Shown: one piece after another, positions 1 to 62,913 of the stretch
Layout: the number at the start of each line of letters is the position of its first letter
Numbering within the stretch: the stretch's first letter is position 1
Origin: Eledone cirrhosa
Taxonomy: Eukaryota
Length of the DNA stretch: 64,000 nt
NCBI GenBank assembly: GCA_964016885.1
Contig: OZ024750.1
Span: forward strand, 44,144,001 to 44,208,000
Direction of reading: 5' to 3'
The notes under the pieces: model-generated
Told to the model about the DNA's origin: nothing
The model's input: the letters and a program-made list of their open reading frames with translations, nothing else
The model's database searches: none
Position numbers and translations under genes: made by a program

Positions 1-9
1 TCATAGAAT

Positions 10-201
10 AATAATTGTTTCTACTTTAGGCAAAAGGTCATCAAATTACCCAGTTCATTACTGGTACTTTATTTTATCGACCCCGTAAGGATGAAAGGCA
101 AAGTCAACCTCGGCGGGATTTAAACTCAGATCGTAAAGGGACGTAACTATGCTGGAAAGCATGGCGTCCGACCCTCCACCGATACTGCCAATTCACCGCC
201 C
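10..201 (-). mobile_element. tRNA-derived SINE, family 1
   Basis: Minus strand has A box TGGCAGTATCGG, a B-box-like segment, central GCCTTTCATCCTTACGGGGTCGATAAAATAAAGTACCAG and tail TAGAAACAATTATT. TSD TCATAGAATAATAAT at 1-15 and 206-220. Confidence 0.9.
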
Positions 202-225
202 TTTATCATAGAATAATAATAATAA

Positions 226-421
226 CAATAATTGTTTCTACTTTTGGCACAAGGCCAGCAATTATTCCAGTGTATTACTGGTACTTTGTTTTATCGACCC
301 CGTAAGGATGAAAAACAAAGTTAATCTCGGCGGGATTTGAACTTACAATGTCAAGGGCTGTAACTCTTTGCTTGCAAAGCATGGCGTCCGACACTCTATC
401 GATACCGCCAATCCACCGCCC
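226..421 (-). mobile_element. tRNA-derived SINE, family 1
   Basis: Full-length copy of the same ~190-nt consensus, head GGGCGGTGGATTGG at 421. Confidence 0.9.
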
Positions 422-437
422 TAAAATGAAGGTCTTT

Positions 438-496
438 CGAGCTTGCCAGGAGTCGAACCTGGAATCTCCTGATCCGTAGTCAGGCGCGTTATCCAT
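438..496 (-). pseudogene. 5'-truncated tRNA-Arg(ACG) fragment
   Basis: Minus strand ATGGATAACGCGCCTGACTACGGATCAGGAGATTCCAGGTTCGACTCCTGGCAAGCTCG. Anticodon arm CTGA-CTACGGA-TCAG and T arm CCAGG-TTCGACT-CCTGG are present. First ~14 nt missing; no CCA; trailer ends in TTTT. Confidence 0.85.
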
Positions 497-516
497 AATG
501 ATAGTATCAATTGTAA

Positions 517-692
517 TAATTGTTTCTACTTTTAGCACAAGGCCAGCAATTACCCCAGTGTATTACTGGTACTTTATTTTATCGACCCTGTAAGGATGAA
601 AGGCAAAGTTAACCTCCGCGGGATTTGAACTCAGATCATAAAGGGCCGTAACTCTATGCTGAAATGCATGGCGTCCGACCCTCTACCGATAC
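517..692 (-). mobile_element. SINE family 1, slightly 5'-truncated
   Basis: Consensus match; 17-bp TSD CAATTGTAATAATTGTT at 508-524 and 696-712. Confidence 0.9.
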
Positions 693-889
693 AGACAATT
701 GTAATAATTGTTATCAGACATTATAAATCCTATTTCCACTGATATTTAAATGTTATTTGCTAGGAATTGGTTCATATTCATAGAGATCGATAACTTTTAA
801 TATTTACTGCGAATCTATAATATATTGATTGCTTTTGACAAAATAATATATCAAAGTTTGTGAAGAGAGTTATGAAGTATATAATGAAG

Positions 890-3682: not shown

Positions 3683-3879
3683 AGTGTGGAATTTAGAATG
3701 ACTTTGTTTTTTGAGTGAAGATAGGTCATTAAGAATTTTCAGTGGTATTGGAGGGACATAAATATTAACTGGAGCCAACATATCTAGAGTGTTGTTCTGA
3801 AACTGACTGTGACCAGGTCGCAAATAGTGCTACGAAATAGTTTCCACCAATAAATATATGATAAGGGTAAAGAGAAATA

Positions 3880-4332
3880 GTGGTTTCTGGTTTAGGTAGA
3901 GTACTAACAATATTTGGGGGAGGGGAAATTTGATGAAATTGACATCACTGCATTATTAGGGCTTATTATATCGACGCCGTCGGGACGAAAGCCAAAGCTA
4001 ACCTCGGCGGAATTTGAACTCAGAACGTAAAGGGTCGTAACTCTATGCTGCAAAGCATGTTCTACGACGTTCTACCGTTACTGCTAATCCACCGCCCTGT
4101 AGTTTAGAAGTAATGATTTTTACTATAGGCGCAAGGCCTGCAATTTTGGGGGAGGGGAAAGTCGATTAAATTGACCCCAGTACATTACTAGTGCTTTATT
4201 TTATCAATCCCCGTAAGGATGACAGGCAAAGTTAACCTCGGTGGAATTTGAACTCAGAACTTAAAGGGCCGTAACTCTATGCTGCAAAGCATGGTGTCCG
4301 ACGTTCTACCGATACTGCTAATCCACTACCCT
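3880..4332 (-). mobile_element. two tandem SINE family 1 variants (longer 3' part with GGGGAGGGGAAA)
   Basis: Two diverged copies at ~3880-4098 and ~4113-4332, each followed by CCTGTAGTTTAGAA. Confidence 0.8.
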
Positions 4333-4734
4333 GTAGTTTAGAAATAATAAAATCACTCTTCCGCGGTAAAATTGCTTTAGTTTCAACACACGGACTCAAA
4401 TCAAGTCATTTGCCAGATAAAATCTGGCTAAAATGATTCTTCCACAATGAAATTGCTTTTGATGCAGCAAAGTTTCAGATCAAATCATCTGCCAGATAAG
4501 TATATCTGTGGCTAAAATAACTGTACCACAATGAAATTGCTTTCAATTCAGTACACAATCTCAGATCAAATCACTTGCCACAAAAATACAACTGCAACAT
4601 TTCCGTTCAGTTAGAAAAAGCGTTAGTATCGATATATGATTAGGTTTGAAAATGTGACAGTTTCCAATGAAACCACCAAAGTTTAGAACCTGTAATGCCG
4701 GAACAAACTTATCTAAATAACTGATACTATTTAT

Positions 4735-5110
4735 TGGTGGATTGGCAGTATCGGTAGAGGGTCGGACGCCATGCTTTCCAGCATAGTTACGTCCCTTTTC
4801 GATCTGAGTTCAAATCCCGCCGAGGATGACTTTGCCTTTCATCCTTACGGGGTCGATAAAATAAAGTACCAGTAATGCACTGGGTATTTGCTGGCCTTGT
4901 ACCTAAAGTAGAAACAACTATTTATTCAAAGTAGTATCGGTAAAGGGGCGGACGCCGTGATGTGACGCATGGAGTTACAGCCCTTTCCATTCTGAGTTCA
5001 AATCGCGCCGAGGTTAACTTTGCTTTTCATCCTTACTGGGTCGATGAAATAAAGTACCAGTAATGCACTGGGTAATTGATGGCCTTGTGCCAAACGTAGA
5101 AACAATTATT
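4735..5110 (+). mobile_element. two tandem SINE family 1 copies
   Basis: 4735-4922 and ~4930-5110, both with B box, central domain and tail. Confidence 0.88.
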
Positions 5111-5256
5111 TACTCAGATATTCAGCAAAACATCATTTTGTACAGATGTTTATAGCCAAGCACGCATACGATCTACCTACACATATCTACACAGAGAAAG
5201 AGTGAGAAAATGAGAGGAGGGGAGAGTTATGCACTCTCAAACACATATCTATCTAT

Positions 5257-8386: not shown

Positions 8387-8448
<62 letters not shown>

Positions 8449-8454
8449 ATAATA

Positions 8455-8643
8455 ATAATTGTTTCTACTTTTGGCACAAGGCCAGCAATTATCCAGTGCA
8501 TTACTGGTACTTTATTTTATCGACCCCGTAAGGATGAAAGGCAAAGTTAACCTCGGCGGGATTTGAACTCAGATCGTAAAGGGACGTAGCTATGCTGGAA
8601 AGCATGGCGTCCGACCCTCTACCGATACTGCCAATCCACCACC
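8455..8643 (-). mobile_element. SINE family 1
   Basis: Near-consensus copy. Confidence 0.92.
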
Positions 8644-8925
8644 ATATATATATAATAATTATTATTATTTCATTTATTAGCCACTAGGGCCGACATGTAT
8701 AATAATAATAATACTATTTATAGTTATGTATATAGTATAAACAACTATAAACAGGAAGGTCAGTAATTTCTTAATTACCTTATTATCAGTAAGAGAAATA
8801 GCACAATGTATGAACATCAGTTGTTTTACAGAGCAGTTAAATAAATAAATAAATATATATACTCATACACACATACTCACCCACATATACATACACACAC
8901 ACTGAAGTTAATCTACATATGAAAG

Positions 8926-14472: not shown

Positions 14473-14585
14473 TAGGAAAATGATTGACCCCGACGGCAGA
14501 GCTCAAGCCGTTTCGACGGCTATTTCAGAAATAGCCGTCGAAACGGTGCATCTGGTCCATCTGGTTTCTTACCACAACTCCTCCT

Positions 14586-14587
<2 letters not shown>
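14473..14587 (+). mobile_element. fold-back element family B (internally deleted)
   Basis: CCGTTTCGACGGCTATTTC/GAAATAGCCGTCGAAACGG palindrome plus family tail; TA-flanked. Confidence 0.75.
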
Positions 14588-14633
<46 letters not shown>

Positions 14634-14833: not shown

Positions 14834-15035
14834 AACGAAGGACATGTGGGAAGGAACCAGGTGGACCACAATGCACCAAAGTACTCAATACTTAGGGTAG
14901 TAGAGTGGGTAATAGGAACGAGTAGGACCCCGACGGCTGAGCTGAAGCCGTTTCGACGGCTAATTCTGGACTCGATCAGTCCAGTATTAGCCGTCGAAAC
15001 GGCTTCAGCTCAGCCGTCGGGGTCCTACTCGTTCC
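14834..15035 (-). mobile_element. fold-back element family B
   Basis: ~60-bp near-perfect inverted arms (14913-15037) plus ~80-nt one-sided tail; in (TA)n. Confidence 0.85.
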
Positions 15036-19962: not shown

Positions 19963-19964
<2 letters not shown>

Positions 19965-20179
19965 CAAAGGAATTGTGGTAAGGAACCAGTTGGACCATAA
20001 CGCACCAGAGTACTCAATACTTAGAGTAGTAGAGTGGGAATTAGGAAAATGTATGACCCCGACGGCAGAGCTCAAGCCGTTTCGACGGCTATTTCTGGAC
20101 AAAATTAGAATTTTTTCTAATTTAGTCCAGAAATGGCCGTCGAAACGGCTTAAGCTCTGCCGTCGGGGTCATACTTTTT

Positions 20180-20181
<2 letters not shown>
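19963..20181 (-). mobile_element. fold-back element family B
   Basis: ~70-bp inverted arms centred ~20112 plus tail; in (TA)n. Confidence 0.85.
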
Positions 20182-47886: not shown

Positions 47887-47949
47887 ATATATATATATCT
47901 ATATATATATATATATATATATATAGATAGATAGATAGATATATATATA

Positions 47950-48312
47950 CGATATTAAAAATGGAAACTATATTTATAAAACCATATTTATTTCATTATA
48001 CTTATTTCAAGGATACCAAGTTAAATTATGGTATGCCTTCATCAGACAAAATACAATATATATCAGTTTTACAAATAAGCATTGACGTGCCCTTTCAAAA
48101 TGCGACCGTTACTTTTGGACGACCTCTGATGAAGGCATACCATAATTTAACTTGGTATCCTTGAAATATGTATAATTAAATAAATATGGTTTTATAAATA
48201 TAGTTTCCATTTGTTAATATCGTATATCTACTCCAAATACATGTCGAGTGCTTTATATCAGTTATAAAAATATTTACTTGTTGTATCCCAACAGTTTAAA
48301 TAGAACTTTTGC
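47950..48312 (+). mobile_element. fold-back element family A
   Basis: Inverted arms 47950-48046 / 48125-48222 plus ~90-nt tail; in (TA)n. Confidence 0.85.
47989..48053 (-). ncRNA. type I hammerhead ribozyme, family A
   Basis: TATTTTGT-CTGATGA-AGGCATACCA(loop)TGGTATCCTT-GAAA-TAAGTATA-ATGAAATA. Confidence 0.75.
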
Positions 48313-48336
48313 ATATATATATATATATATATATAT

Positions 48337-48644
48337 GAAGAATGAATTGTGGTAAGGAACCAGATAGACCATAACGCACTAGCGTACTCAATACTTAGGG
48401 TAGTAGAGTGGGTAATAGGAAAAAGTATGACCCCGACGGCAGAGCTCAAGCCGTTTCGACGGCTATTTCTGGACTAAATTAGAATTTGGGCCCGGTAAAT
48501 AAATAACTGAACTTGTCAAAGGGTACTTCCTTAAATGGGAAGGTTGTAGTTGTTGAGAGGACTTACCAGGCTAAAAATTCTAATTTAGTCCAGAAATAGC
48601 CGTCGAAACGGCTTGAGCTCTGCCGTGGGGGTCCGACTTTTTCC
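48337..48644 (-). mobile_element. fold-back element family B with ~90-nt central spacer
   Basis: Arms 48416-48487 / 48574-48646, tail on left. Confidence 0.85.
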
Positions 48645-48656
48645 TATATATATATA

Positions 48657-48766
48657 TTGTCCATTTATTTTTGAGACTCGAAACCGATTCGGTAAAGGTA
48701 ACCATAGTGAGTACAGTGAATTTTTTGAAATTTATTTTGAAACTTTTTCTTATTTGCTAAACCTTG

Positions 48767-48823: not shown

Positions 48824-48826
<3 letters not shown>

Positions 48827-48942
48827 AACGAGTAGGACCCAGACGGCTGAGCTCAAGCCGTTTCGACGGCTAATTCTGGCTAATTTAGTCCAGAATTAGC
48901 CGTCGAAACGGCTTGAGCTCTGCCGTCGGCGTCATACTTTTT

Positions 48943-48944
<2 letters not shown>
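48824..48944. mobile_element. fold-back element family B, tail-less, chimeric arms
   Basis: Palindrome whose outer arms match two different subfamilies. Confidence 0.82.
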
Positions 48945-49003
<59 letters not shown>

Positions 49004-49009
<6 letters not shown>

Positions 49010-49199
49010 AAGAAAGTGTGGTAAGGAACCTGGTGGCCCATAACGCATCAGAGTACGCGATACTTAGTGCAGTAGAGTGGGTAATAGAAAAAGCGTCATG
49101 ACCCGACGGCTGAGCACCGGCCGTTTCGACAGCTAGTTCTGAAAGCAGAACTAGCTGTCGAAACAGCTGCAGCTCGGCCTTGGGCGTCCCGACTCGTTT

Positions 49200-49201
<2 letters not shown>
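49004..49201 (-). mobile_element. diverged fold-back element family B
   Basis: GTTTCGACAGCTAGTTCTG-AAAG-CAGAACTAGCTGTCGAAAC core plus tail. Confidence 0.8.
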
Positions 49202-49244
<43 letters not shown>

Positions 49245-49246
<2 letters not shown>

Positions 49247-49513
49247 AAACTTATATTTAAATTGTTGGGTTAACAACGAGTAAATATTTATAACTGATAT
49301 AAAAGCACTCAACAAGTATTTGGAGTATATTTATGATATTAAATAAATGGAAACTATATTTATAAAACCATATTTATTTCGTTATATATATTTCAGGGAT
49401 ATCATAATTGTATTTTGTCTGAAGAAGGCATAACATATTGTTAATATGATATCCATGAAATATATATAACGAAATAAATATGGTTTTATAAATATAGTTT
49501 CCATTTATTTAAT

Positions 49514-49517
<4 letters not shown>
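49245..49517 (-). mobile_element. fold-back element family A
   Basis: Tail on left; arms ~49331-49406 / 49445-49519. Confidence 0.85.
49411..49476 (+). ncRNA. type I hammerhead ribozyme, family A
   Basis: TATTTTGT-CTGAAGA-stem II-GAAA-TATATATA-ACGAAATA; stem I covaries (G-C) relative to the 62533 copy (A-U). Confidence 0.75.
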
Positions 49518-49573
<56 letters not shown>

Positions 49574-55764: not shown

Positions 55765-58302
55765 CTTGAATCTCAGTCATTGATGTTGGTTAACTGGAAA
55801 GTCCGTTGGATTGAATATCAAGCCACTACCTGCAGCCTCAGATATTCAGGACGTATCGGAGGGTTCTTGCCGTTCCAAGCAAGCATGCCTTTTGAAGCGT
55901 TCCAAAAAGCGTGAAGGGGCCGATTTTCTTTAACCATCCCTGGAACCCTTTGGAGAGAGTCCCCAGTGCGCCTATGACAATCGGGATCACTTTGACTTCA
56001 TGGCAGTTCCAAATCCTTTTCACCTCCCACTTTAGGTCCTGGTATCGGTTAATTTTCTCCCTCTCCTTCTCTTGCACTCTCGTGTCGAACGGGCAGGCCA
56101 CATCCACAATCAGGCACGATCTTTTTTCTTTGTCCACAACCACCAGGTCAGGTCTATTGTGTTCCAGTTTTTTGTCCGTCTGTATCCTAAAATCCCACAG
56201 CACCTTCACCTGACTGTTCTCCATCACCGCCTCTGGCCTATGCTCATACCATTTCTCAGAATGTGGTAGATTGTTTACTTTGCACAGGTGCCAGTGGATC
56301 ACCCTGCCCATCACATCGTGTCTCCAGCCCTTATAGTGGGTCTGGGCTAGGTGTTTACACTCGGACACAATGTGAGCCACAGTCTCCTCTCTCTCTCCAC
56401 AGATCCTGCACAGTGGGCTAGCCTCCTCCTTGTAGATATGGTGCTTCAACCACTTCGTTTTGAGGGCCTGCTCCTGCGCAGCCATTAGCATTCCTTCTGT
56501 AGCCTTTTTGAGGTCTCCTCTTCTCAACCAGTTCCATGTCTGTGGATCTCTAAATTCAGTTTTCTCAAAGAAGGTACTATGAAGGGATTTTCCCTTAAGG
56601 CTGCTCTTCCTCCTTGATGTTATTTCCTCCTTGGGTATCCCCTGGCCTACTGTCCCCTCCTTCAGTACAGCTCTGAGCATTGGCTCCTTACTATAGGTCA
56701 CGTATTTGTATAGGTTGTTTTTCTCCATCTGAACACAGTCCTCTATGTTGATAAGACCTCTTCCACCCTCAGATCTCCTTAGGTAGAGTCTATCGACATC
56801 ACTCCTCTTGTGGAACATGTTGTAGATAGTCAATAGCTTCCTAGTCTTCCTATCCATTTCTTTTTGTTCAGCAACATTCCATCTCAGAATTCCCGCACTG
56901 TACCTAATAATAGACACAGCTCGGGAATTTACTGCGCTTATGGCATTTCTGCTGTTCAGATGTGACTTCAATACGCTCCTTACTCTCCGAATGTATTCAG
57001 TTCTTAACAATTCCTTCATTTTTTTGTTCTTTATGCCATCAGCCTCCAGAACGCCCAAATACTTGTATCCTTCCTCAGAGTCAATTTCCTTTATCATCTC
57101 ACCTGTTGGTATCTGGATCCCGTTACTTCTGCTCAACCTACCCCTCTTCATCACAATGACTCCACATTTACCAATACCAAACTGCATACATATATCACTG
57201 CTGAAAATACGGACAGTGTCAACAAGCACATTCAACTCCTTCTCACTTTTCCCGAAGAGCTTAAGATCGTCCATGAAGAGGAGGTGATTGATGGTAAGCT
57301 CTCCCCTTCCCAACTTGTATCCTGCTCTCACTTTCCGCAGCATAATGGTCAAGGGCATCAGGGCAAGGACAAACAACAGAGGGGACAGGCTATCTCCCTG
57401 GAAGATACCTCTCTTGATCTTCACGCTTCCCAAGGATACTCCAGTTGATGTCAACTCTGTCTCCCAGGACCCCATACTCCTGCCCAGCAACTGTCTGATG
57501 TTATCTGCCACCCCGAAGATCTCCAGGCTTTTGGTGATCCAGGAATGAGGCACCATGTCAAATGCCTTTCTGTAGTCTATCCATCCCATGGCAAGATCAG
57601 TGTGTCTCCTCCTGCAATTCCCCATTACCATCTTATCAATAAGCAACTGGTCCTTTGTACCACGTGACTTCTTTCGGCATCCTTTCTGTTCGTCCGGTAA
57701 CAAGTTGTTTGTGTGGAGGTGATGGTAGATTTCCTCAGACACAATGCTCGTCAACAGTTTCCACATTACGGGCAGACATGTGATAGGTCTATAGTTGGTA
57801 ACATCATTACCCTTGATTCGGTCTTTCATTATCAGAACTGTGGTACCTTTTGTCAACCACTCTGGCACCTCACCCGACACCAAGCAGTCATTGAACATGG
57901 CCGTCAGCTTCGGGTGGAGGGATGTTAAATGTTTAATCCAATAACCCTGCACACCATCTGGGCCTGGTGATTTCCAGTTGGTTAGTTTTTTGGCTTGCCC
58001 CTTAAGAGTTTCAACTGTGATACTCAAATCAGTCTGTTGTTGTGCCTGCTCACCGAACTCCCTCTGTACTGTCTCAATCCACCCTGCCTGGGCATTGTGT
58101 CTAACATCCTGCTCCCATATTCCTCTCCAGAATGTTTTAGCTTGTTCCGCCCCAGGGATCAAGTCGTTGCCTCTTTCTTTCCCCTCAAGCTGTCCAAACA
58201 GCATCTTCTGGCTGTTGTCGAACATGCGGTTCTGTTTATACTGACTGACTCTGTTCTCGTATCGCCTGATTTTGGCACTCTTTGCTACAATGCGTTGCTT
58301 CA

Positions 58303-58303
<1 letters not shown>
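55765..58303 (-). mobile_element. 5'-truncated R4/Dong-clade non-LTR retrotransposon inserted in (TAA)n
   Basis: RT + CCHC + restriction-like endonuclease, ~70-nt 3' UTR, (TAA)n on both sides (55716-55764, 58302-58367). Confidence 0.88.
55838..58303 (-). CDS. uninterrupted but N-terminally truncated retrotransposon polyprotein (RT, zinc knuckle, REL endonuclease)
   Basis: KSPGPDG, YRPITCLP, DYRKAFD, GIFQGDSLSPLLF, FMDDLKL, YKYLG, CRICGEREETVAHIVSEC, RHD, RPDLVVVD..IVDVACP..EKINRYQDL. TTG start is the truncation junction, not a real start. Confidence 0.93.
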
Positions 58304-62263: not shown

Positions 62264-62452
62264 AACGAAGGAAATGAGGTAAGGAACCAGGTGGACCATA
62301 ACACACCAAAGTACTCAATACTTAGGGTAGTAGAGTGGCTAATAGGAACCAGTAAGACCCCGACGACTGAGCTCAAGCCGTTTCGACGGCTAATTCAGTC
62401 CAGAATTAGCCGCCGATACGGCTTGAGCTCAGCCGTCGGGGTCTTACTGGTT

Positions 62453-62454
<2 letters not shown>
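62264..62454 (-). mobile_element. fold-back element family B
   Basis: Arms centred ~62398, tail on left; in (TA)n. Another copy starts at 63986 and runs off the window. Confidence 0.85.
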
Positions 62455-62494
<40 letters not shown>

Positions 62495-62532
62495 ATATTA
62501 ATAAATGGAAACTATATTTATAAAACCATAAT

Positions 62533-62598
62533 TATTTTATTATATATATTTCAAGGGCAACAAAGACAAATTATGGTGCGCTCTCATCAGATAAAATA
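62533..62598 (-). ncRNA. type I hammerhead ribozyme, family A (best copy)
   Basis: TATTTTAT-CTGATGA-GAGCGCACCA(loop)TGTTGCCCTT-GAAA-TATATATA-ATAAAATA: perfect 8-bp stem I, full core, palindromic helix III, AUA site. Confidence 0.82.
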
Positions 62599-62716
62599 CA
62601 GATTTGTTTTATAAATAAATATTGACATACCCGGAAAAAAGATAACCTTAACGGTTGAAATTCCCTGGATAGTCTTTTTTCCGGGTATGTCAATATTTAT
62701 TTATAAAACAAATCTG

Positions 62717-62782
62717 TATTTTATCTGATGAAAGCGCACCATCATTTGCCTTGGTGGCCCTTGAAATATACATAAAAAAATA
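62717..62782 (+). ncRNA. type I hammerhead ribozyme, family A
   Basis: TATTTTAT-CTGATGA-AAGCGCACCA(loop)TGGTGGCCCTT-GAAA-TATACATA-AAAAAATA. Confidence 0.75.
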
Positions 62783-62913
62783 ATTATGGTTTTATAAATA
62801 TAGTTTCCATTTATTAATATATAGAATATTTACTCCACTAATCAGTTGAGTGCTTTATATCAGTTATAAAAATGTTTAACCTTATTGAATCCCAACAAAT
62901 TAAATATAACCTC

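What the first reader, a model, noticed from the sequence alone, without database searches (positions are those of the whole stretch)
48337..48644. Family B palindromes look like half-hammerheads folded back through their own stem II
Seen: seven copies (14473, 14834, 19963, 48337, 48824, 49004, 62264). On at least one arm each reads ...AGCYGTC-GAAA-CGGC(loop)GCCG-TC-GG(G)GTC, i.e. GAAA, a 5-bp helix III and a GUC site. None has CUGANGA; the symmetry centre always lies just upstream, where stem II would be. This copy keeps a ~90-nt spacer whose ends still pair imperfectly (GCCCGGTAA/TTACCAGGC), like an original long stem II loop. Inference: cDNA that has copied stem II snaps back and self-primes, or two cDNAs anneal there, replacing the 5' half of the ribozyme with an antisense copy. 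That would be a ribozyme-templated palindrome generator. I am not aware of this mechanism being described.
Basis: partly seen in the sequence, partly recalled or inferred. Interest (0 to 1): 0.75.

Follow-up and report, generated by a model that had tools for sequence, protein, structure and literature searches.

The report
Penelope start site inside its ribozyme
These mirror-image repeats are paired tail ends of a Penelope-type jumping gene, and about four in five sampled arms stop at one spot inside its predicted self-cutting RNA motif, likely because the RNA being copied starts there and not because the motif folds the copy back on itself.

Summary
The palindromes are real but are not ribozyme fold-backs. 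They are head-to-head pairs of 5'-truncated 3' ends of a Penelope-like retroelement (intact 784-aa RT plus GIY-YIG ORF, Hydra-clade motifs, (TA)n target; 68,245 arm matches genome-wide). Parents carry a whole type I hammerhead with a U3-A8 core (UUGANAA), a variant already described; the flagged copy holds one in its 'spacer', on the minus strand. Stem II snap-back fails: its product is 0 of 50 and 0 of 69. The ends instead look like run-off at a capped RNA start: an initiator-like TTAGT/TCAGT, an extra G before its A (5,420 against 890 with A; long parents have G in 0 of 72), both arms sharing one fate (0 mixed pairs of 41), and no stop there on second passage (0 of 30). Likely mechanism: twin internal priming on one RNA that starts inside the ribozyme. 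No RNA data confirm it. The scan found the Penelope identity, U3-A8 core and short/long-end rule before on other DNA; the capped start was not found in its notes.

The parts
48337..48561 (-). Tail-bearing arm: 5'-truncated 3' end of the Penelope-like element, positions -104 to +120 relative to the G of GAAA (48457)
   Evidence: 90-92% identical over about 220 nt to non-inverted parents L042 and L018, 84% to intact unit L067
48430..48524 (-). Complete type I hammerhead fold: stem I 48524-48520 with 48434-48430, core UUGACAA 48519-48513 (U3-A8), G10.1 48512, stem II 48509-48501 with 48468-48460 (one mismatch in this copy), 32-nt loop II, GAAA 48457-48454, helix III, predicted cut after C at 48435
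   Evidence: read from sequence; 93% of cells paired on 17 aligned copies; cleavage untested
48337..48417 (-). About 80-nt tail between the two insertion end sites (+39 and about +120); equals the start of the ORF-bearing body in tandem units
   Evidence: two RT start sites bounding the tail are shown in vitro for another PLE (PMC11167929)
48472..48477 (-). Initiator-like TTAGTC in loop II; its A (48475, position -18) is the inferred transcription start. The same motif is at 48585-48590 on the plus arm
   Evidence: hot spot of 5' ends and extra G genome-wide; initiator consensus recalled
48562..48562 (.). Head-to-head junction, one base not matching either parent continuation
48563..48644 (+). 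Tailless inverted arm, positions -42 to +39 (G of GAAA at 48605); lacks the 5' half of the ribozyme
   Evidence: 94% identical to L018
48313..48336 (.). (TA)n target, left side
48645..48657 (.). (TA)n target, right side
14834..15035 (.). Typical short copy: both arms end at -18; the tail-bearing minus arm has a G directly before the -18 A
14473..14588 (.). Short copy, ends at about -12 and -14; the tail arm has an internal deletion
19963..20181 (.). Copy with ends at about -28 and -33
48824..48944 (.). Copy with two tailless arms of different subfamilies (unusual)
49004..49201 (.). Diverged short copy, both ends at about -14
62264..62454 (.). Short copy, ends at about -12 and -21

Best explanation
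The palindromes are head-to-head pairs of 5'-truncated 3' ends of a Hydra-type Penelope-like retroelement, likely made when its enzyme primes two cDNAs, one from each side of a (TA)n break, on one RNA, and both likely run off a capped RNA start that lies inside loop II of the element's predicted hammerhead. Shown: element identity, one arm ending at +39 and the other at about +120, the 5'-end hot spot, the extra G, the shared fate of both arms. Inferred: that the hot spot is a Pol II start at the A of TTAGT/TCAGT (-18); that the extra G is the copied cap; that the two cDNA ends are joined by short-homology end joining, which trims them to -12..-17 or adds short templated inserts; that long copies come from another template (read-through tandem or circular RNA) with no end at that place. 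A transcript starting there would lack the 5' half of the ribozyme, so its 5' end could not self-cleave.
For: Identity: intact 784-aa frames in 3.54-kb tandem units whose ends are family B. End rule: 65 of 69 short palindromes have one tail and one tailless arm, matching two internal RT starts and extension of both strands in vitro (PMC11167929). Hot spot: 88 of 108 arms end at -10..-30; 16,163 such palindromes genome-wide, control 0. Template end, not random stop: short arms pair with short and long with long, 0 mixed of 41 pairs, about 12 expected, P about 1e-6; 0 of 30 distinct arms that precede an ORF start there. Cap mark: G before the -18 A 5,420 times, A 890 times; long parents have T 67, C 5, G 0 of 72; by eye 14 of 30 fetched G cases are not explained by the partner; arms ending exactly at -18 have G:A 9:2 against 17:32 at other end positions, Fisher p 0.0065. 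Untemplated G is the accepted cap mark in L1 and SVA (PMC4859970). Either arm can be the longer one: tailless 28, tail 25, equal 12. 733 plus 362 copies have a tailless arm reaching -17 or beyond while the tail arm stops short of GAAA.
Against: No RNA data: the start, the cap and cleavage are untested. The modal end is -17 (31 arms), not -18 (11), and ends spread from -11 to -25. In the 100 junctions, counted by eye, inserts before the -18 A ended in G 6, A 5, C 3 times: no clear G excess there. 11 of 30 G cases take the G from the partner arm. A count for C or T at -19 as a further control is confounded by subfamilies and was not made. The initiator consensus is recalled. If a capped full-length mRNA were copied from its 3' tail, full-length copies should end at -18; none of 30 does, so a second template class has to be assumed.
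Confidence: 0.7

Rival explanations
1. One reading: cDNA copies stem II and snaps back, or two cDNAs anneal through stem II, replacing the 5' half of the ribozyme.
For: Junctions cluster just upstream of GAAA. Short local fold-back inserts are common at junctions. In the neighbouring hammerhead family 1 of 14 pairs (L307) has the predicted stem II junction.
Against: Product keeping loop II: 0 of 50, 0 of 69. Either arm can be longer. Many copies have arms that share no stem II sequence. In the neighbouring family 11 of 14 pairs keep both cores, with the centre upstream of the ribozyme.
Confidence: 0.03
2. The hot spot is a reverse-transcriptase block at folded or protein-bound RNA (extended stem II), not an RNA end.
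For: The hot spot lies on the 3' strand of a predicted distal helix in loop II; ends are spread over about 12 nt.
Against: 0 of 30 stops on second passage through the same sequence; 0 mixed pairs of 41; G excess specific to -18.
Confidence: 0.1
3. Short palindromes are themselves a replicating unit: a hairpin RNA is copied whole, so junctions are inherited from a few founders.
For: Arms of one copy share subfamily variants (mean 3.8 differences within, 7.6 between). One junction makes 8 of 69 pairs, 7 in one orientation. An earlier scan note reports RNA-edited hairpin copies (e1-8671701, unchecked).
Against: 50 distinct junctions among 69 pairs; the same junctions recur in both main subfamilies; it does not explain why founders end at -18 with a G.
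Confidence: 0.1
4. The fixed RNA end comes from processing (nuclease cut, lariat branch point or splice acceptor) rather than transcription start.
For: Loop II reads like a branch point and AG acceptor (sequence); Penelope elements have introns near their hammerhead (PMC4209133).
Against: Branch-like A is only 3-9 nt from the AGs; no shared upstream exon at junctions; a cut end would not add G.
Confidence: 0.07

Closest known systems
Hydra-clade Penelope-like elements (Craig et al. 2021, PMC8557442; section 11, passages, supplement part 2 and search hits)
   Same: C-terminal GIY-YIG; RWR (RWK-like), DKT, CxCX5C linker, CxxC and CxH around the EN end, no CCHH; (TA)n target; partial tandems; inverted 5'-truncated copy; tail on one end; hammerhead at the 3' end with the G10.1-C11.1 pair and inner loop seen in Hydra-1_aMil and Penelope-2_NV.
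   Different: Unit 3.54 kb (Hydra generally under 3 kb); tail about 80 nt (30-40 usual); core mostly U3-A8, while all Hydra motifs listed in supplement S2 have CUGANGA; long loop II; a family other than Hydra-1_Obim (different hammerhead, protein start only about half identical by eye).
U3-A8 hammerheads of Schistosoma Cercyon PLEs (Cervera and de la Pena 2014, PMC4209133; parts 1-2 of 4)
   Same: U3-A8 covariation, location in pLTRs, pairs on opposite strands 100-700 bp apart, palindromic loop 3.
   Different: Full 5-bp helix III and 31-33-nt loop II here; no mapping of junctions or start site in the parts read.
Poseidon PAc in vitro mechanism (Frangieh et al. 2024, PMC11167929; parts 1-2 of 4)
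   Same: Two internal RT starts bounding the tail, both strands extended, AT-rich target, uncleaved RNA as main template.
   Different: Does not address head-to-head palindromes, the RNA 5' end in vivo or a cap mark in the parts read.
Adineta vaga Penelope inverted junction palindromes (Arkhipova et al. 2013, PMC3846280; passages and Discussion)
   Same: Head-to-head inverted pLTRs, tail on one arm, initiator-like motif in the pLTR.
   Different: Explained by self-priming on an antisense template; data here favour two cDNAs from one sense RNA ending at a capped start.
L1 twin priming and cap-derived untemplated G (PMC4859970; passages)
   Same: Two primers from one break give an inversion; extra G marks a capped 5' end.
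   Different: L1 inversions are not mirror duplications of the same 3' segment (recalled); here both arms overlap and stop at one site.

Membership tests
EN+ Penelope-like elements | Single ORF with RT and GIY-YIG endonuclease | tested here: met
   784-aa frame with YRDD and VIY..YIG; Pfam gave no RT hit on fragments, so this rests on motifs and homologs
EN+ Penelope-like elements | pLTR or partial tandem, inverted 5'-truncated copy, tail at one end | tested here: met
Hydra clade | RWK-like and DKT motifs, CxCX5C linker | tested here: met
   RWR 104, DKT 184, CNCPDRSIC 639; also in 115, 113 and 114 of 120 homologs
Hydra clade | CCHH absent; CxxC and CxH flank the EN end | tested here: met
   CNLC 737, CKH 765; one Cys only between VIY and YIG, by eye
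Hydra clade | (TA)n insertion | tested here: met
Hydra clade | Canonical CUGANGA hammerhead | tested here: inconclusive
   hammerhead present but core U3-A8 76, C3.A8 22, U3.G8 2, C3-G8 0 of 100; rare C3-G8 copies exist (5 of 12 loci)
Hydra clade | Generally under 3 kb (described as a tendency) | tested here: not met
   unit about 3.54 kb
Hydra clade | Placement in the RT phylogeny | not tested
   reference proteins were seen only cut in the supplement; no tree built, so the clade call rests on motifs
Type I hammerhead ribozyme | Three helices around core N3UGAN7N8A / GAAA / UH with G10.1-C11.1 | tested here: met
   93% of cells paired against 31-55% when slid; position 7 takes all four bases. 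Covariation does not exceed shuffles; Rfam gave no hammerhead hit; the fold is the MFE for L042 (z -2.25) but not for L067 or the flagged copy
Type I hammerhead ribozyme | Self-cleavage | not testable with these tools
   about 11 of 100 partner arms stop at the cut site (by eye), a weak hint; most arms cross it
MITE or foldback DNA transposon | Symmetric terminal inverted repeats with a transposase parent | tested here: not met
   ends are asymmetric and the parent encodes RT
Non-LTR retrozyme | Non-coding tandem hammerhead monomers | tested here: not met
   tandem units carry the ORF; short copies lack a whole ribozyme

The most novel reading that the evidence does not exclude
This Penelope family starts its capped transcript inside loop II of its own hammerhead, so the 5' copy of the ribozyme is split and inert; internal twin priming near that start yields retrovirus-like 'strong-stop' cDNA pairs that make most insertions (over 16,000 palindromes), while full-length copies come from a separate read-through or circular template. 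The genome thus records both the start site and two template classes of a PLE replication cycle.
Probability: 0.55. Interest if true: 0.68.

Novelty: new variant of a known kind. Interest (0 to 1): 0.5.

Why it matters
How Penelope-like elements make their tandem and inverted insertions is named as an open question (PMC8557442), and the published guess is self-priming on antisense RNA (PMC3846280). Here tens of thousands of junctions separate the models: they exclude stem II fold-back and a random enzyme stop, and point to two cDNAs made on one RNA with a fixed capped end. That gives one base to test by 5' RACE and a young, intact family to test in vitro. It also suggests a role for ribozyme placement: only read-through RNA holds a whole hammerhead. 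The element class, inverted anatomy and U3-A8 core are known.

Tried and rejected
Rfam scan of the window gave only microsatellite-driven miRNA hits among the 150 of 369 rows shown; no hammerhead hit on the parent. Pfam found no RT on five ORF fragments. MITE reading rejected (RT parent, asymmetric ends). Single C/G inserts between two -18 ends (5 of 6 single-base inserts) were dropped as cap evidence because a TCAGT subfamily explains them. The by-eye cap count was not supportive. The automatic templated/untemplated classifier was too coarse; counts are by eye. No RNA holder listed; contigs of four runs of unrecorded kind show a depth step at the hot spot and ends at the two sites but cannot show RNA ends, and the best holder may be the assembly's own sample. 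A test whether C3.A8 copies end at -18 when full length was uninformative: none of 20 fetched loci (16 of them C3.A8) reached the upstream arm. Five of the 43 ORF loci gave no row. The subfamily label printed beside junctions used a non-diagnostic position and was ignored. Long-arm 5' ends are lower bounds because UTRs diverge; the cluster at about -340 is probably such an artefact. The arm sample is anchored on -11..+2, so arms that stop earlier are not counted in the 88 of 108.

Full report
Numbering: the G of GAAA is 0; sense is the strand of GAAA..GUC. The genome is about 3.0 Gb and rich in simple repeats; it looks octopus-like (recalled repeats; earlier scan notes say the same).

Observation. 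The seven copies are there, each in (TA)n. A 14-mer of the arm occurs 68,245 times in the genome against 10 for the control. None of the seven has CUGANGA. The flagged copy has a long minus arm (48337-48561, -104 to +120) and a short plus arm (48563-48644, -42 to +39). Its 'spacer' is parent sequence read on the minus strand, 90-92% identical to non-inverted copies.

Parent. A search with the copy returned long non-inverted relatives. Upstream lie about 1.1 kb of UTR and an ORF in the same sense. A protein search found many open frames of 784 aa, some in tandems of about 3.54 kb. The protein has YRDD, a C-terminal VIY..YIG nuclease, RWR, DKT, CNCPDRSIC, CNLC and CKH. These are the Hydra-clade marks of Craig et al. 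2021 (PMC8557442, section 11), with the (TA)n target. The 120 best homologs listed share them (115, 113 and 114 of 120). It is not their Hydra-1_Obim. No tree was built.

Ribozyme. Parents read ACCCC, core, G, inner loop, CGGCTATTT, 31-33-nt loop, AAATAGCCG, TC, GAAA, helix III, GUC, GGGGT. Among the first 100 of 6,662 matches the 3-8 pair is U-A 76, C.A 22, U.G 2, C-G 0. Position 7 takes all four bases. Rare CUGAGGA copies exist (5 of 12 fetched loci). On 17 chosen copies 93% of cells pair, against 31-55% when slid, but covariation does not beat shuffles. Rfam does not detect it and the fold is the minimum-energy one for L042 only. U3-A8 is described for Schistosoma PLEs (PMC4209133). The spread of a C3.A8 subfamily suggests cleavage is not needed to transpose, as found in vitro for Poseidon (PMC11167929).

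Anatomy. In 65 of 69 short palindromes one arm ends at +39 and the other carries an 80-nt tail. This is the known inverted 5'-truncated copy with a tail at one end and fits two internal RT starts with both target strands extended.

The hot spot is real. In a position-unbiased sample from the first 13.3 Mb of one contig, 88 of 108 mapped arms (109 found) end at -10..-30, one at -53, 19 further upstream. Genome-wide, 16,163 palindromes have 4-34 nt between the stem II strands (control 0).

It is not stem II snap-back. That needs the 5' strand of stem II to be copied and keeps loop II in one orientation (gap 37-39). Of 826 copies with gaps of 35-45, none of the 50 listed does; they are short templated inserts and A/T tracts. 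None of 69 short pairs keeps the 5' part of the loop. The longer arm is tailless in 28, tailed in 25, equal in 12. In 733 and 362 copies the tailless arm reaches -17 or beyond while its partner stops short of GAAA, so one arm cannot be a copy of the other. In the neighbouring hammerhead family 11 of 14 pairs keep both cores and are centred upstream of them; 1 of 14 has a stem II junction.

It behaves like an RNA 5' end. (a) Both arms share a fate: about 34 short-short and 7 long-long pairs, no mixed pair, about 12 expected (P about 1e-6). (b) None of 30 distinct arms preceding an ORF starts there, so the enzyme passes the same sequence freely on long templates. (c) The edge sits on TTAGT, TCAGT in one subfamily, which fits an initiator with A as +1 (consensus recalled). 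(d) The base before that A is G 5,420 times and A 890 times, while long parents have T 67, C 5, G 0 of 72. By eye 14 of 30 G cases are untemplated, 11 come from the partner arm, 5 are inserts or unclear; about 13 of 30 A cases are untemplated. Arms ending exactly at -18 have G:A 9:2 against 17:32 elsewhere (p 0.0065). An extra G marks the cap in L1 and SVA insertions (PMC4859970). Against: the mode is -17, ends spread to -25, and the 100 junctions showed G 6, A 5, C 3.

Model. Shown: identity, end rule, hot spot, G excess, shared fate. Inferred: Pol II starts at -18; the enzyme primes twice at the nearby tail sites and both cDNAs run off; end joining trims and joins them. Long copies need another template, read-through tandem RNA or a circle as proposed in PMC4209133. 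A speculative link: cleavage at the 3' hammerhead would remove the 3' priming sites from the linear mRNA, since both lie downstream of the cut. Arms of a copy share subfamily variants, as expected from one RNA; window copy 48824 is an exception.

Literature. Internal Inr/DPE promoters are shown for D. virilis Penelope (PMC2377424, passages), where the start lies upstream of the intron and so of the hammerhead. Self-priming was proposed for junction palindromes (PMC3846280, passages and Discussion). An octopus repeat survey counts Penelope families without this detail in the passages seen (PMC13282606). Searches listed no paper on a capped start inside a PLE hammerhead or on run-off twin cDNAs; only listings were seen for most of them, and subscription papers are missing. 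PMC3088659 and PMC7151607 were seen as listings only. Part 1 of 5 of preprint 10.64898/2026.07.22.740005 was read; its supplements could not be seen, and those of PMC11167929 and PMC4209133 were not read and may bear on junction positions.

Earlier scan notes reached the Penelope identity, U3-A8 core, end rule and circular-template idea on other DNA; a word search for the capped start found nothing.

Verdict. New variant of a known kind; interest 0.5.

Noticed in passing
window 47942-48312, 49245-49525, 62483-62910: A second (TA)n-inserted hammerhead family with canonical CUGAUGA core and minimal helix III, also in head-to-head pairs with one tail; 54 arm rows in the window and fetched loci (some duplicates), 11 of 14 pairs centred upstream of the ribozyme. 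No ORF was looked for.
   Followed up: partly
   Followed up: no
window 48824-48944: Both arms tailless and of different subfamilies, unlike 65 of 69 sampled pairs.
   Followed up: no
G000, one search list (for example L185, L201, L202): A subfamily with a C3.A8 mismatch in the ribozyme core makes 22 of 100 long arms; it is predicted to cleave poorly yet spread.
   Followed up: partly
G000, one search list (for example C1:18731499, C1:20838034): Runs of up to about 20 A added to the cDNA end at -19, possibly slippage on the U run at the RNA start.
   Followed up: no
helix III loop, window 48441-48449 and parents: Loop 3 is palindromic (GAGCTC, or TGAGCTCA in young copies), as in dimer-type PLE hammerheads.
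   Followed up: no
window 55838-58303, minus strand: Open frame of 821 aa with RVT_1 (E 4.6e-23) and zf-RVT: a LINE fragment, probably R4/Dong type (recalled).
   Followed up: partly
window 1-700, 2054-2262, 3877-5114, 8446-8667 and many more: A very abundant 200-nt dispersed repeat, SINE-like.
   Followed up: no
G000:C1:91473600-91488400 (L063, L064) and C2:51276000-51287000 (L065, L066): Tandem arrays of near-identical intact units, so the family was recently active.
   Followed up: partly
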